From the NCBI GenBank assembly GCA_016933055.1, contig JAFGBS010000021.1:90001-122000 (forward strand): DNA of 32,000 nt. Direction: 5' to 3'. Of this stretch, positions 4,532 through 9,582 are shown one piece after another (the stretch's first letter is position 1; each line of letters starts with the position of its first letter). A program made the position numbers and the translations under genes. Source of the DNA: Promethearchaeota archaeon. Its GTDB lineage: Archaea; Asgardarchaeota; Lokiarchaeia; Sigyniarchaeales; Promethearchaeaceae. The notes beneath the pieces were generated by a model. It was not told the DNA's origin and searched no databases. It worked only from the letters and a program-made list of their open reading frames with translations.

Positions 4532-6124
4532 ATGAAAAAACGTGTCCTACGTAATATTGAAGTCTTGTGCTTAATTTTGATGATTACGGTAATATCTTCA
4601 TCATTGAATAGAATAACTCCGAATCAGAAGCATGCAGAAATAATTTTTTCTCCACCTCAGAATGAGTCAATAGGGGTACCCGTTGAAACCACAATGGAAC
4701 CCTTTCTGGATCAATACTTAAATGCAGAATCAAGTGGGGAATCAATTGAAATTGTTGAATATAATGTGAAAACAGGAGTAGAAGAGACCTATAATGTCAA
4801 TTTTGATGAAATCCATTCCGTAGGTACTCAAATAGAACCCTACGCGGGAAATTTTTATCATCGCTTAATGGAGCAAAAGGTTCAAGAAGGTTCATTTTCG
4901 GAGGCGTTGAGTTCTTCGAGTACTCTTGGTCCTGAGGAACTGACTCTGGTTAACGATACAACCATTTATCCATGGAGTGCTGTAGTGAAAGTGATTTCGA
5001 CAATTAATGATACACATTCCGCTTGGTGTTCAGGAACATTGATCGATTCCAATCACGTTCTCACGGCGGGTCATTGTATCTATGATATCACCGATGGGGG
5101 ATGGAGATCCGATGTGTACGTTATTCCCGGTAAAAATGGTACTGGTAATTCTCTTATGGAAGAACCTTTTGGTCGCGCATATGCTACTCATTTAAGATCA
5201 ACAAAAGGCTGGACACAAAATCCATCACCCAAGAATGATTGGGCATTAATCACGTTAGATAGGGATATTGGAGATGAAACTGGGTGGCTAGGAGTAAAAA
5301 CACTGCCATTAGATCACAATAATTATACTGATATGGTATATACTGCGGGGTACCCTGCGGAAACAAAATCGGGGTACTATATGTATAATAATTCCGGAAG
5401 TAGTGGTTGGGTAGATGAATATAATCACTATTATACTTTTTATGGGGAAGGTGGTCAAAGTGGAAGTGGGGTATGGACCTATCAAAATGCATCACCGTAC
5501 ATCATTAGTATCTATGCATGGAGTACGCCGATGGGGACTCGTATAACGCAAGAAAAATTTGACATCTTGAACCTCTGGCTGGAACAAGATGCATCAACAG
5601 AACCTCAGGTGGATTTTGAAGTTCTTGGATCCAATAATATTCTCAAAGCTTTAAATTATATAAAAACGGTCAATACTTTCTTTACCGCATTTCCAATAGC
5701 GACTCAAGTCCAAAACCATGGTAATATTGGAGCTGATAAGGTAACTCTTGGGTATTATTTATCAGAGGATGATATTATCAGTGCAGAAGACTATTTAATT
5801 GCAGAAAAAACTATTAGAAATTTGCAGGCGTTTGAATTAAGGAATGTTGAGAAAAGAGTTAGAATCCCTCTTGGTATTCCGCCAGGATCTTATGAACTTG
5901 GATGGATGATAGATCCGAACAACGAAATTGATGAATATTTTGAAGATAATAATTTCTTTGTTTGTGGTATTCGTCTGTATGTCCAAAACACCTTTTTGGA
6001 TCCGATATTAACTGATCCTCTCTGGTTAAGTCTTATCATCACGGGTATTGTGCTAGTAATCGCAGCACCTGCGGTAATTGTGGTGGTTGTTCTAGTAAAA
6101 AAACGAAGAAAGTTACCCAAATAA
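4532..6124 (+). CDS. Membrane-anchored V8-like (S1B, trypsin-fold) serine protease with CARDB domain, paralogue 1
   Basis: Signal peptide; triad TAGH / NDWAL / GGQSGS; CARDB (VQNHG..GYYLSED..IDPNNEIDE..EDNN); C-terminal TM and KKRRK tail. Confidence 0.9.
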   Translation: MKKRVLRNIEVLCLILMITVISSSLNRITPNQKHAEIIFSPPQNESIGVPVETTMEPFLDQYLNAESSGESIEIVEYNVKTGVEETYNVNFDEIHSVGTQIEPYAGNFYHRLMEQKVQEGSFSEALSSSSTLGPEELTLVNDTTIYPWSAVVKVISTINDTHSAWCSGTLIDSNHVLTAGHCIYDITDGGWRSDVYVIPGKNGTGNSLMEEPFGRAYATHLRSTKGWTQNPSPKNDWALITLDRDIGDETGWLGVKTLPLDHNNYTDMVYTAGYPAETKSGYYMYNNSGSSGWVDEYNHYYTFYGEGGQSGSGVWTYQNASPYIISIYAWSTPMGTRITQEKFDILNLWLEQDASTEPQVDFEVLGSNNILKALNYIKTVNTFFTAFPIATQVQNHGNIGADKVTLGYYLSEDDIISAEDYLIAEKTIRNLQAFELRNVEKRVRIPLGIPPGSYELGWMIDPNNEIDEYFEDNNFFVCGIRLYVQNTFLDPILTDPLWLSLIITGIVLVIAAPAVIVVVVLVKKRRKLPK

Positions 6125-6191
6125 AAGATTATTCTCTTTTCTCCCATTATTTTCTATATTTTTAATCTTAGGATCTAAAATTATGAGAGAA

Positions 6192-6243
6192 AAAATTATA
6201 TATTTTTTCTCTTAGTTTTGGTTAAGATATAGGAGTCAGAAGT
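6192..6243 (+). promoter_or_regulatory. Promoter/leader of protease paralogue 2
   Basis: AAAATTATATA, TTTTGGTTAA (20-nt offset), ATAGGAG. Confidence 0.7.
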
Positions 6244-7854: not shown

Positions 7855-7922
7855 ACTCAAACTTTTCAATTTTATCTTTTTTTGATAATACTTTCTCTAA
7901 GATAAAAAAAAATATGAACGTT

Positions 7923-7971
7923 AAAATTATAAATTCGTACACTAAATTTTGGTTAATAGATAGGAGTAGTA
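7923..7971 (+). promoter_or_regulatory. Promoter/leader of protease paralogue 3
   Basis: AAAATTATAAA, TTTTGGTTAA (20-nt offset), ATAGGAG. Confidence 0.7.
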
Positions 7972-9582
7972 ATGATGAAAAAACGTACTCTGCGTAGTTT
8001 AATTGGGATGTGCACCATTTTCTTGATGATAGGGCTTGTTGCGTCCATAAACTCAAATCATTTAAAAGAACAATCTCTAACAATCGAATTTGCCCGACCC
8101 CAAGATGAAATAAAATATCTCCCCATTGAGACTACATTAAAGCCTTACTCTGAAGAATTTTGGAATGTTAATTCTATAAATGATAAATCCCAAGATACGG
8201 TTGAATACAACATTATAACGGGAATTGAAACACAAATCGCAATTGAACCAAACGATTTAATCACTACAATAACCCAATTAGAACCTCATGAGGGATGGTT
8301 TCATAATAACGATAGGTGGCATAATAATCCTTCCGCAGATTCATTTGTGAGTGCTTTGCACACATCACATGTGTTTCCTCCCGATGATCGTGTATTGGTA
8401 TCGGATACTACCATATATCCCTATAGTAGTATCGTAAAAATCTGGGTAGAAGCTGCCAATGGATCGTATTATGTGGGATCTGGAGCGATAATCGATCCCA
8501 ATCATGTTCTTACGTGTGGTCATATTGCCTACATACATGATGCTGGGGGGTGGGTTAGCGAGATGGAAATAACTCCGGGATTGGACGGCACCACGGAACC
8601 ATATGGTGTTGCGTATGCCACTTTAATGCGATCAACAACAGGTTGGATTAATGATGAATCCTATCAACATGATTGGGCGGTCATTACCTTAGATCGGGAT
8701 ATTGGGGACTCAACAGGATGGATGGGAGTGAAAACCTTACCATTAGATCACATCAATTATACGGATCAAAATTATCTTTATACTGCAGGATATCCCGCAG
8801 AAATCAAATCAGGATACTATATGTGGGAGACGCACGATGATGAAGCCAACGAGGCAACTGAATATAATATATGGTATCATTTGGATTCAGAAGGAGGTCA
8901 AAGTGGAAGTGCAGTGTGGACATATGATGAGGGGGATCCCTATATTCTTGGAGTACATGCTTATAGCCAGTTAGGTACCGGTCCCAATTTTGGTACGCGT
9001 TTAAACACGGATAAGTTCAACTTATTGGTCAGTTGGTTAGCTCAAGATGCGTCTTCGGAACAGAAAACGGATTTACAAGTAACTGGTTCTAATAATATTA
9101 TTGCAGCAATTGGTTCTCCATATGTGTATAAACTTAGTACCAGAATAAACGTTCTAACATCCATACAGAATATCGGTCTTATAACTGCAGATAAAGTTAC
9201 CATCGGATTCTATTTTTCCAGTGATACCAATATTACTACTGAAGATTATTACATTGGAAAAGTTAATATCTATAATGTTCAACCTATGGATACTGTGAAC
9301 GCTCAATTCCTAAAATTAGCTCCACTGAACATACCTGTGGGCACTTATAAAATTGGCTGGATAATTGATCCTAATAATGAGTTGGATGAATATAACAAAG
9401 AAAATAATGTTTATGTTGGTCCTACCTTATATGTTCGTTCTTCAGTTATCAGCGACATTTTAGAAGATCCTCTGTGGGTCACGATCATAATTGCAGCTGT
9501 AATAATTATTATTGTAGTACCCACGGTGATTGAAATCGCCCGTAAGCGAAAACGGAAGAGACTTGCTATGGGTCTCAGATAA
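7972..9582 (+). CDS. Membrane-anchored V8-like glutamyl endopeptidase with CARDB domain, paralogue 3
   Basis: Signal peptide; VFPPDDRV..DTTIYPY typical of a mature N-terminus; TCGH / HDWAV / DSEGGQSGS / GVH; CARDB; TM plus RKRKRKR tail. Start may be the second ATG (7975). Confidence 0.9.
   Translation: MMKKRTLRSLIGMCTIFLMIGLVASINSNHLKEQSLTIEFARPQDEIKYLPIETTLKPYSEEFWNVNSINDKSQDTVEYNIITGIETQIAIEPNDLITTITQLEPHEGWFHNNDRWHNNPSADSFVSALHTSHVFPPDDRVLVSDTTIYPYSSIVKIWVEAANGSYYVGSGAIIDPNHVLTCGHIAYIHDAGGWVSEMEITPGLDGTTEPYGVAYATLMRSTTGWINDESYQHDWAVITLDRDIGDSTGWMGVKTLPLDHINYTDQNYLYTAGYPAEIKSGYYMWETHDDEANEATEYNIWYHLDSEGGQSGSAVWTYDEGDPYILGVHAYSQLGTGPNFGTRLNTDKFNLLVSWLAQDASSEQKTDLQVTGSNNIIAAIGSPYVYKLSTRINVLTSIQNIGLITADKVTIGFYFSSDTNITTEDYYIGKVNIYNVQPMDTVNAQFLKLAPLNIPVGTYKIGWIIDPNNELDEYNKENNVYVGPTLYVRSSVISDILEDPLWVTIIIAAVIIIIVVPTVIEIARKRKRKRLAMGLR

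What the first reader, a model, noticed from the sequence alone, without database searches (positions are those of the whole stretch)
4532..9582. Tandem triplet of surface V8-like proteases with diversified specificity pockets
Seen: three colinear paralogues with intact His/Asp/Ser triads. Established: Glu specificity in S1B proteases depends on Thr/Ser190 and His213 (chymotrypsin numbering). By manual alignment, paralogue 3 keeps both (DSEGGQSGS, GVHAY). Paralogue 1 has G190/Y213 (YGEGGQSGS, SIYAW) and paralogue 2 has V190/V213 (YVEGGQSGS, SVVAY). The following loop also varies (STP, GPEGGGIG, SQLGTGP). Only paralogue 1 has the C42-C58 pair (WCSG..GHC). Only paralogue 3 has the canonical activation N-terminus (VFPPDDR vs TLGPEEL and ELGPDEL). 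Inference: a neofunctionalised membrane-tethered protease set with complementary P1 specificities, or a cascade in which one paralogue activates the others.
Basis: partly seen in the sequence, partly recalled or inferred. Interest (0 to 1): 0.72.

Follow-up and report, generated by a model that had tools for sequence, protein, structure and literature searches.

The report
Three diverged surface proteases in tandem
A Loki-type archaeon carries three neighbouring genes for membrane-anchored, Bacillus/V8-like serine proteases; one keeps the residues typical of glutamate-cutting enzymes, while the other two belong to a tiny, fast-evolved branch with a rebuilt substrate pocket, much like the diversified protease gene arrays known in staphylococci.

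Summary
Three co-oriented genes (4532-6124, 6244-7854, 7972-9582) encode 530-536-aa proteins. Each has a signal peptide, a ~105-aa pro-region, an S1B protease domain, a CARDB domain and a C-terminal membrane helix. All quoted motifs are present.

Models (pLDDT 95) superpose on Bacillus intermedius glutamyl endopeptidase (Z 33 and 31, rmsd 1.5-1.7 A).

Paralogue 3 carries the family's usual signature: residues 2-8 VFPPDDR, D189, S190, H213, N~224.

Paralogues 1 and 2 belong to a subclade of about nine known sequences, one cluster among 1.84 billion representatives. It has R8L, D189Y, N~224G/P and non-hydroxyl/hydrophobic 190/213. Its protease domain, but not its CARDB stalk, evolved about three times faster than paralogue 3's (relative-rate p 1e-5 to 5e-4). 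The triad is intact in every member.

The reading 'diversified S1 pockets' is therefore supported, but the actual specificities are untested. H213 alone is not decisive: it is variable across the family, and BIGEP H213T still prefers Glu.

The cascade idea has no support. Subclade genes stand alone in relatives, and the predicted activation junction has Ser at P1 in all three.

Each gene has its own conserved promoter-like element. The same locus in a sister species holds two different paralogues.

Verdict: an archaeal, membrane-tethered variant of a known theme (staphylococcal spl/ssp arrays). Interest is moderate.

The parts
4480..4523 (+). Private promoter-like element of paralogue 1: A/T-rich TATA-like box (4480-4492), TTTTGGTTAA box (4504-4513), TAGGAG ribosome-binding-like site (4518-4523), 8 nt before the ATG
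   Evidence: The composite pattern occurs only 3 times in the 3.76-Mb genome, once before each paralogue.
4532..6124 (+). Paralogue 1 (P0001, 530 aa). Signal-like segment aa 4-29. Pro-region to about aa 129. S1B domain about aa 130-356 (window 4919-5599) with H181, D236, S310. Y189/G190 at 5441-5446, Y213-A-W-S216 at 5513-5524, short 217-224 loop, C42-C58 pair (C166/C182). CARDB about aa 387-476. TM aa 497-522 (6020-6097) and KKRRK tail.
6192..6235 (+). Private promoter-like element of paralogue 2 (TATA-like 6192-6204, TTTTGGTTAA 6216-6225, TAGGAG 6230-6235)
6244..7854 (+). Paralogue 2 (P0002, 536 aa). Same architecture. S1B domain about aa 131-363 with H182, D237, S312. Y189/V190 at 7159-7164, V213-A-Y-G216 at 7231-7242, long Gly-rich 217-224 loop (7243-7275). 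No cysteine. TM aa 504-526 (7753-7821).
7923..7966 (+). Private promoter-like element of paralogue 3 (TATA-like 7923-7935, TTTTGGTTAA 7947-7956, TAGGAG 7961-7966)
7972..9582 (+). Paralogue 3 (P0003, 536 aa), the canonical glutamyl-endopeptidase-like copy. H133-VFPPDDR140 strap (8368-8391). H184, D234, S311. D189/S190 at 8884-8889, H213-A-Y-S216 at 8956-8967, N339 (~224). CARDB about aa 389-481. TM aa 501-523 (9472-9540).

Best explanation
The locus encodes three separately promoted, probably co-regulated pre-pro-enzymes of peptidase subfamily S1B. Their closest solved relative is the Bacillus intermedius glutamyl endopeptidase. Each is displayed on the outside of the archaeal membrane: the protease domain sits on a CARDB (Ig-like) stalk held by a single C-terminal helix.

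Paralogue 3 keeps every residue typical of the family and of the Bacillus/V8 glutamyl endopeptidases: the N-terminal strap x-V-F-P-P-D-D-R8, D189, S190, H213, a small residue at 216 and N~224. It is predicted to cleave after Glu once its pro-region is removed and the new N-terminus docks at S1.

Paralogues 1 and 2 descend from a sister lineage. After duplication its protease domain changed about three times faster than that of paralogue 3, while the stalk did not. On that branch the strap lost V2 and R8, the S1 floor changed D189 to Y, N~224 was lost, and 190/213 became G/Y (P1) or V/V (P2). The triad, the GGQSGS oxyanion motif and overall conservation were kept afterwards. They are therefore predicted to be active endopeptidases with an uncharged, more hydrophobic S1 pocket that no longer relies on the N-terminal amine to compensate a Glu side chain. 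That implies a P1 preference other than Glu, probably differing between P1 and P2.

The likely role (inference) is cell-surface digestion of environmental proteins and peptides with a broadened cleavage repertoire, in an organism from a group known to use detrital protein.

Shown: architecture, fold, residue identities, phylogeny, rate asymmetry, promoter conservation. Inferred: activity, P1 preferences, processing site, physiological role.
For: Family and fold:
- Pfam Trypsin/Trypsin_2 plus CARDB.
- 1p3c is the best PDB hit by sequence (6e-16) and by family profile (1e-27).
- AF2 models reach pLDDT 95.7 and 95.0.
- Superposition on 1p3c gives Z 33.0 at rmsd 1.5 A over 211 residues, and Z 31.2 at 1.7 A over 206. 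V8, Esp, exfoliative toxins and Spl proteases come next.

Topology: an N-terminal hydrophobic segment and a C-terminal hydrophobic segment followed by a basic tail.

P3 is canonical:
- Among 138 diverse representatives, R8 is present in 133, D189 in 130, T/S190 in 108, H213 in 100 and N~224 in 128.
- The review PMC5508998 names His213 and Ser/Thr190 as the mandatory S1 elements and the residue-1 alpha-amino group as charge compensator in V8/BIGEP/Esp.

P1 and P2 are derived:
- The subclade has 100% support and P3 is its sister, in both the catalytic-domain tree and the stalk tree.
- The subclade stem is 0.93 substitutions/site against 0.25 for P3 in the protease domain, but 0.42 against 0.79 in the stalk.
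- Tajima relative-rate counts are 40-49 against 12-18 unique changes in the protease domain (p 1e-5 to 5e-4), and 9-14 against 11-15 in the stalk (p 0.55-1).
- R8L, D189Y and N~224G/P are fixed in all subclade members.
- The triad is intact in all members.
- The subclade collapses to one 50% cluster among 1.84 billion representatives.
- An independent Y189/A190/L213 lineage (P0134) shows that this pocket type recurs.

Regulation: the promoter element is unique to the three genes, although synonymous sites between them are saturated (pS 0.59-0.74).

Ecology: Lokiarchaeota take up labelled protein in sediments (PMC9123169).
Against: - No enzyme of this archaeal family has been assayed.
- Specificity in chymotrypsin-fold enzymes is not reliably read from two or three pocket residues. 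BIGEP H213T keeps its Glu preference, and trypsin D189S does not become chymotrypsin (PMC5508998).
- H213 is already absent from most close family members that keep D189/T190. P3's 'canonical' state is therefore one of several.
- P3 has Ser rather than Gly at 216.
- The exact mature N-termini are unknown.
- The fast branch could partly reflect relaxed constraint rather than adaptation.
Confidence: 0.6

Rival explanations
1. Redundant array. All three are glutamyl endopeptidases with essentially the same P1 preference. The pocket differences only tune rate, stability or subsite (P2-P4, P1') preference, and multiple copies serve dosage.
For: BIGEP H213T keeps strict Glu preference (PMC5508998). 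Determinants of Glu specificity are described there as unresolved and partly remote from S1. Positions 190 and 213 are variable across the whole family. All three genes share one promoter type.
Against: In P1 and P2 the changes go beyond 213. Thr/Ser190 is lost, D189 becomes Tyr, and the strap residues V2 and R8 and N~224, which are near-invariant in 130 or more of 138 representatives, are all replaced. The rate burst is confined to the protease domain. Genes this old (synonymous sites saturated) are unlikely to be kept for dosage alone.
Confidence: 0.15
2. Activation cascade. One paralogue removes the pro-region of another, as in the staphylococcal aureolysin to SspA (V8) to SspB chain, so the array is a regulated zymogen relay at the cell surface.
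For: V8/BIGEP-type enzymes are normally activated by another protease and do take part in cascades (PMC5508998). The three genes are adjacent and share a promoter type. P1 and P2 have a Glu 7-8 residues upstream of the predicted junction, where a Glu-specific P3 could make a first cut.
Against: The predicted junction has Ser at P1 in all three and in 73 of 120 family members. That points to a common outside activator, or to a different mechanism. The upstream Glu is not conserved in subclade orthologues. Subclade genes stand alone, without an adjacent canonical partner, in G001 and on three metagenomic contig families. The sister species holds two canonical-type genes at this locus instead.
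Confidence: 0.1
3. P1 and P2 are decaying or non-catalytic derivatives (pseudo-proteases or binding proteins) whose fast evolution reflects relaxed constraint.
For: The subclade has a long stem branch and has lost otherwise near-invariant residues. The family does decay in this genome: a truncated copy on contig C4 has lost His57.
Against: His/Asp/Ser and the GGQSGS motif are intact in all nine subclade members. After the stem, the protease domain is again the best-conserved part: 66-76% identity within the subclade against 59-65% for the stalk. The frames are full length, and pN is well below pS. The models are confident.
Confidence: 0.1

Closest known systems
Bacillus intermedius / B. licheniformis glutamyl endopeptidases (BIGEP, PDB 1p3c; MEROPS S1B)
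   Same: Best sequence and structure match: profile E 1e-27, Z 33, rmsd 1.5 A. Shared features are the pre-pro organisation, an N-terminal strap ending in D-x-R8, and D189-T/S190, GxSGS, H213 and N~224. All of these are kept in paralogue 3.
   Different: The Bacillus enzymes are soluble and secreted, with no CARDB domain or membrane anchor. Paralogue 3 has Ser216 rather than Gly216. Paralogues 1 and 2 lack R8, D189, T/S190, H213 and N~224. Identity is only 24-27%.
Staphylococcus aureus V8 protease (SspA) and S. epidermidis Esp
   Same: Same fold (Z 27-29). The N-terminal residue docks at S1 after pro-peptide removal, and activation is by another protease.
   Different: Lower similarity (about 20% identity). 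They are soluble, and they belong to a host-associated bacterium rather than a sediment archaeon.
S. aureus spl operon (SplA-F)
   Same: A tandem array of S1B paralogues. PMC7926377 describes their substrate specificities as complementary. They are structural neighbours of the models (Z about 24-25).
   Different: Spl proteases form one operon, have no pro-region (the N-terminus is made by signal peptidase), and are secreted and soluble. Here each gene has its own promoter-like element, a ~105-aa pro-region and a membrane anchor, and the specificities are unmeasured.
Uncharacterised Asgard/Bathyarchaeial 'CARDB domain-containing protein / V8-like Glu-specific endopeptidase' family in public MAGs
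   Same: Same architecture and 33-55% identity. This is the family to which all three belong.
   Different: Most members carry D189 and R8. Paralogues 1 and 2 belong to a Y189/L8 subclade of about nine sequences seen only in this genus-level lineage.

Membership tests
Peptidase S1, subfamily S1B (chymotrypsin fold) | Catalytic triad His57-Asp102-Ser195 in that order, with a GxSGS motif | tested here: met
   All three paralogues and all 120 aligned relatives have H, D and S at the aligned columns.
Peptidase S1, subfamily S1B (chymotrypsin fold) | Two-beta-barrel chymotrypsin fold closest to S1B structures | tested here: met
   AF2 pLDDT 95.7 and 95.0. 1p3c gives Z 33.0 and 31.2 at rmsd 1.5 and 1.7 A, followed by V8, Esp, exfoliative toxins and Spl.
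Peptidase S1, subfamily S1B (chymotrypsin fold) | Match to the Pfam trypsin models above the curated cut-off | tested here: met
   PF00089 scores 44.2 bits (P1) and 31.0 bits (P2) against a cut-off of 20.6. P3 is borderline: 20.4 against 20.6, and PF13365 27.0 against 27.6. P3 is nonetheless the best match to 1p3c.
Glutamyl endopeptidase of the V8/BIGEP type | His213 together with Ser/Thr190 in S1 ('mandatory elements', PMC5508998) | tested here: met
   This row is for paralogue 3 only (S306 and H329). Paralogues 1 and 2 are scored in the next row.
Glutamyl endopeptidase of the V8/BIGEP type | His213 together with Ser/Thr190, in paralogues 1 and 2 | tested here: not met
   P1 has G190/Y213 and P2 has V190/V213. 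They are therefore not filed as glutamyl endopeptidases.
Glutamyl endopeptidase of the V8/BIGEP type | N-terminal strap (hydrophobic residue 2, D-x-R8) that brings the residue-1 amino group into S1; small residue at 216 | tested here: inconclusive
   P3 has H-V-F-P-P-D-D-R and Ser216. P1 and P2 have S-T/E-L-G-P-E/D-E-L, so V2 and R8 are lost. The true mature N-terminus and its docking could not be measured because no coordinates were available.
Glutamyl endopeptidase of the V8/BIGEP type | Cleavage after Glu (much more than Asp) | not testable with these tools
   Needs enzyme assays.
spl-type tandem S1B array | Adjacent co-oriented S1B paralogues | tested here: met
   Three genes lie on the + strand with 119- and 117-bp spacers.
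spl-type tandem S1B array | Single operon; mature N-terminus made by signal peptidase (no pro-region) | tested here: not met
   Each gene has its own TATA-like/TTTTGGTTAA/TAGGAG element. About 105 residues lie between the signal-like segment and the protease domain.
CARDB domain (PF07705) | Pfam match above the gathering score | tested here: met
   31.2, 34.0 and 27.8 bits against a cut-off of 22.7.
Archaeosortase/exosortase-sorted C-terminal signal (PGF-CTERM-like) | Recognised CTERM sorting-domain model and a sortase gene in the genome | tested here: inconclusive
   Only a sub-threshold GG_III-CTERM hit (E 0.15). PF09721 was not found in the 91%-complete genome. A plain membrane anchor is the simpler reading.

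The most novel reading that the evidence does not exclude
The Y189/L8 subclade (paralogues 1 and 2) is a previously undescribed S1B design. It has given up the V8/BIGEP mechanism, in which the new N-terminal amine completes the S1 pocket, and has rebuilt the pocket around Tyr189. Together with the canonical paralogue 3 it forms a surface-tethered zymogen relay or complementary 'degradome' in an Asgard archaeon, an archaeal counterpart of the staphylococcal protease cascade.
Probability: 0.12. Interest if true: 0.7.

Novelty: new variant of a known kind. Interest (0 to 1): 0.4.

Why it matters
Sediment Asgard archaea are thought to live partly on detrital protein, yet none of their surface proteases has been characterised. 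This locus offers a compact natural experiment. It holds one paralogue with the full glutamyl-endopeptidase signature and two whose protease domain alone went through a burst of change at the S1 floor and the N-terminal strap.

Assaying the three would do two things. It would test which residues really set Glu specificity in S1B enzymes, a question the field's own review calls unresolved. It would also show how an archaeon widens its cleavage repertoire.

The finding does not reveal a new kind of system.

Tried and rejected
1. Expression: no RNA holder was listed for the stretch. Read laying was not run because the two RNA runs of the source study held next to none of its words.

2. dN/dS among the three genes: synonymous sites are saturated (pS 0.59-0.74, dS above 1 or undefined), so no omega or branch-site test is meaningful with these sequences.

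3. Pocket geometry (R8-D189-N224 contacts, position of the N-terminal amine): model coordinates are not exposed to scripts. Only residue equivalences from alignments and superposition ranges could be used.

4. Recent in-genome duplication of P1 and P2: the best tree puts P1 outside P2 plus the foreign orthologues (95/94), but forcing P1+P2 together is not rejected (AU p 0.087). This is undecided.

5. Strict R8-D189 coupling: rejected as a rule. P0134 has Y189 with R8 kept, and P0172 and P0101 have L8 with E or D at 189.

6. Pro-region family: no Pfam match. NCBIfam gave nothing above its cut-offs.

7. Sorting signal: no exosortase or archaeosortase was found.

8. Conserved triplet in relatives: not found. 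Only 6 of 41 related genomes have the family at E<1e-20 with this query, and none has this triplet.

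Full report
WHAT IS THERE

Three open reading frames lie head to tail on the + strand at 4532-6124, 6244-7854 and 7972-9582. They encode 530, 536 and 536 aa and are separated by 119 and 117 bp. The products are P0001, P0002 and P0003, called P1, P2 and P3 below.
- P1 and P2 are 58% identical over full length. P1 and P3 are 44% identical.
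- Each matches Pfam Trypsin/Trypsin_2 and CARDB.
- Each has an N-terminal hydrophobic segment after a KKR motif, and a C-terminal hydrophobic segment followed by a Lys/Arg cluster.

The predicted layout is therefore: signal peptide, ~105-aa pro-region with no known family, protease domain, CARDB stalk, one membrane helix and a short cytoplasmic tail.

No archaeosortase or exosortase was found in the 91%-complete genome, and no C-terminal sorting model scored above threshold. A plain membrane anchor is the simplest reading.

CHECK OF THE OBSERVATION

The triads are:
- P1: H181, D236, S310.
- P2: H182, D237, S312.
- P3: H184, D234, S311.

Only P1 has Cys at the positions of C42 and C58 (C166 and C182). 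P2 has no cysteine at all.

The hand-made numbering holds:
- HMMER aligns DSEGGQSGS of P3 with DTFSGNSGS of Bacillus intermedius glutamyl endopeptidase (BIGEP, 1p3c), and GVHAY with GVHNA.
- AF2 models of the protease domains of P3 and P1 reach pLDDT 95.7 and 95.0.
- They superpose on 1p3c with Z 33.0 (rmsd 1.5 A, 211 residues) and Z 31.2 (1.7 A, 206 residues). V8, Esp, exfoliative toxins and Spl proteases follow.

One correction. By register the mature N-terminal residue would be H133 (P3), S130 (P1) and S131 (P2). VFPPDDR is then residues 2-8.

THE FAMILY

The proteins belong to a family common in Asgard metagenome-assembled genomes (Promethearchaeota/Loki, Hermod-, Odin- and Thorarchaeota) and also present in Bathyarchaeia and Methanothrix. 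It is usually annotated 'CARDB domain-containing protein' or 'V8-like Glu-specific endopeptidase'.

An exhaustive search of 1.84 billion cluster representatives gave 115 proteins at E<=1e-30 and 2315 at E<=1e-10.

Among 138 diverse representatives the signature is close to that of the Bacillus enzymes:

| Position | Residue | Present in |
|---|---|---|
| 8 | R | 133 |
| 189 | D | 130 |
| 190 | T/S | 108 |
| 213 | H | 100 |
| 216 | G | 94 |
| ~224 | N | 128 |

Among the 120 closest homologues, position 213 is much more variable (H 35, N 26, L 24, V 17, F 10). Position 216 is E, G or S. Pocket-wall variation is therefore a general property of the family. The column entropy ranks of 213, 191, 190 and 216 are 44, 49, 68 and 81 of 224. 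The flanking positions 189, 214, 215 and 226 are conserved.

The review of glutamyl endopeptidases (PMC5508998) makes three relevant points:
- It reports that BIGEP H213T still cuts only after Glu, with kcat down more than 600-fold.
- It states that the determinants of Glu specificity are not settled.

WHERE THE THREE PARALOGUES SIT

P3 has the full signature: V2, R8, D189, S190, H213, Ser216 and N~224.

P1 and P2 fall in a small subclade with P0005, P0007, P0008, P0009, P0050, P0123 and one gene of the sister species G001. At 50% clustering this subclade is a single representative in the whole library.

All its members show these states:
- L at position 8.
- Y at 189.
- G or P at ~224.
- A non-conserved, often polar residue at position 2.
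- G, V or S at 190.
- Y, F, L or V at 213.

G190 with an aromatic 213 is the commonest state and is the one in P1. P2's V190/V213 is unique. P1 alone has the shortened 217-224 loop, W215 and the C42-C58 pair.

Trees of the protease domain and, independently, of the CARDB stalk both place P3 as sister of the subclade (95* and 99*). The pair is in turn sister to the P0010/P0012/P0054/P0055 clade (98*).

A DOMAIN-SPECIFIC BURST

In the protease-domain tree the subclade stem is 0.93 substitutions per site against 0.25 for P3. In the stalk tree the values are 0.42 and 0.79.

Tajima relative-rate counts with P0010 or P0012 as outgroup:

| Domain | Unique changes, P3 | Unique changes, subclade member | p |
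|---|---|---|---|
| Protease | 12-18 | 40-49 | 1e-5 to 5e-4 |
| CARDB stalk | 11-15 | 9-14 | 0.55-1 |

After the stem the protease domain is again the best-conserved part within the subclade (66-76% identity). The triad and the GGQSGS motif are intact in every member.

This is the pattern expected of a shift in function followed by renewed constraint, not of decay. Real decay looks different here: a fragment on contig C4 keeps IFPPDDR but is truncated and has Thr in place of His57.

An unrelated family member, P0134, has independently acquired Y189 with A190 and L213 while keeping R8. The Tyr189 pocket is thus a recurrent alternative, and R8 and D189 are not strictly coupled.

AGE, CONTEXT AND REGULATION

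Synonymous sites among the three genes are saturated (pS 0.59-0.74), so the duplications are old.

P2 groups with foreign orthologues rather than with P1 (95/94). A P1+P2 clade is not rejected, however (AU p 0.087).

Subclade genes occur singly, in other neighbourhoods, in G001 (contig C66) and on metagenomic contigs.

The window's locus is syntenic with G001 contig C44:
- The 821-aa receptor-like protein upstream is 63% identical to its G001 counterpart.
- Cold-shock genes follow in both genomes.
- The OB/PUR gene lies downstream in both.
- G001 has two proteases of the D189/T190/L213/E216 type at this position instead of the triplet.

The array therefore turns over by gain and loss. Only 6 of 41 related genomes have the family at E<1e-20 with this query.

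Each of the three genes is preceded, at the same distance, by an AAAATTATAWAWT box, a TTTTGGTTAA box and TAGGAG. The composite occurs only at these three places in the genome and not before the G001 genes. Because neutral sites between the genes are saturated, this conservation indicates either a selected shared regulatory element or local conversion. It also argues for three transcription units rather than one operon.

THE CASCADE IDEA

By register the activation junction is S|S (P1), S|S (P2) and S|H (P3). Ser occupies that P1 position in 73 of 120 family members.

None of the three pockets obviously suits Ser. The junctions do not differ in a way that pairs one paralogue with another.

A Glu 7-8 residues upstream in P1 and P2 could give a Glu-specific P3 a first cut, but it is not conserved in the orthologues.

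Together with the solitary subclade genes in relatives, nothing here favours a relay. Nothing excludes one either.

COMPARISON WITH KNOWN SYSTEMS AND VERDICT

In mechanism and fold these are S1B enzymes nearest to the Bacillus glutamyl endopeptidases.
- P3 passes the sequence criteria for that type.
- P1 and P2 fail them (no T/S190, no H213, no R8/V2 strap). They should be called S1B proteases of unknown specificity.

As a gene arrangement the closest parallel is the staphylococcal spl operon. PMC7926377 describes its tandem S1B paralogues as having complementary specificities. The differences are that Spl proteases form one operon, lack a pro-region and are soluble.

What is new here is modest:
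- An archaeal, membrane-tethered, CARDB-stalked version of this theme.
- A very small lineage in which the S1 floor and the N-terminal strap were rebuilt.

The specificities, the processing site, the activity and the physiological role remain inferences. Protein foraging is plausible given the labelled-protein uptake by some Lokiarchaeota (PMC9123169).

Interest is moderate.

Noticed in passing
G000 contig C4:8129-8392 (locus L004:1501-1932, minus strand): A 143-aa remnant of a fourth family member. It keeps IFPPDDR but has 'YGTC' where the others have 'AGHC' (catalytic His lost), and it ends about 60 residues into the protease domain. It is probably a pseudogene.
   Followed up: partly
L015 (G001:C44:24000-36000) versus window 1-11400: The locus is syntenic in the sister species: a receptor-like 849-aa protein 63% identical to window 2-2464(-), two cold-shock genes, and the OB/PUR gene downstream. 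G001 holds two proteases of the D189/T190/L213/E216 type instead of the triplet, and its Y189-type gene sits on another contig (C66). The array turns over by birth and death.
   Followed up: partly
window 4480-4523, 6192-6235, 7923-7966: A promoter-like composite (TATA-like box, TTTTGGTTAA, TAGGAG) is conserved before all three genes and is found nowhere else in the genome, although synonymous sites of the genes are saturated. It is absent before the G001 orthologues.
   Followed up: yes
protein P0134 (1020 aa): An independent family member has also acquired Y189 with A190/L213 and lost N~224, while keeping R8. This is a convergent Tyr189 pocket.
   Followed up: partly
family alignment, column 216: About 40% of the close Asgard homologues carry Glu at position 216 together with L or N at 213 and D189. 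That is an acidic pocket unlike any characterised glutamyl endopeptidase and suggests further specificities in the family.
   Followed up: no
window 3870-4124 (-): A bacterial-type cold-shock protein (CspA-like, 84 aa) lies directly upstream of the array. It is duplicated at the same place in G001 (L015:3862-4119 and 4438-4698).
   Followed up: no
family alignment, junction columns: The residue before the predicted mature N-terminus is Ser in 73 of 120 family members and Glu in 13. Most members would therefore need a non-Glu-specific activator, while a minority could self-activate.
   Followed up: partly
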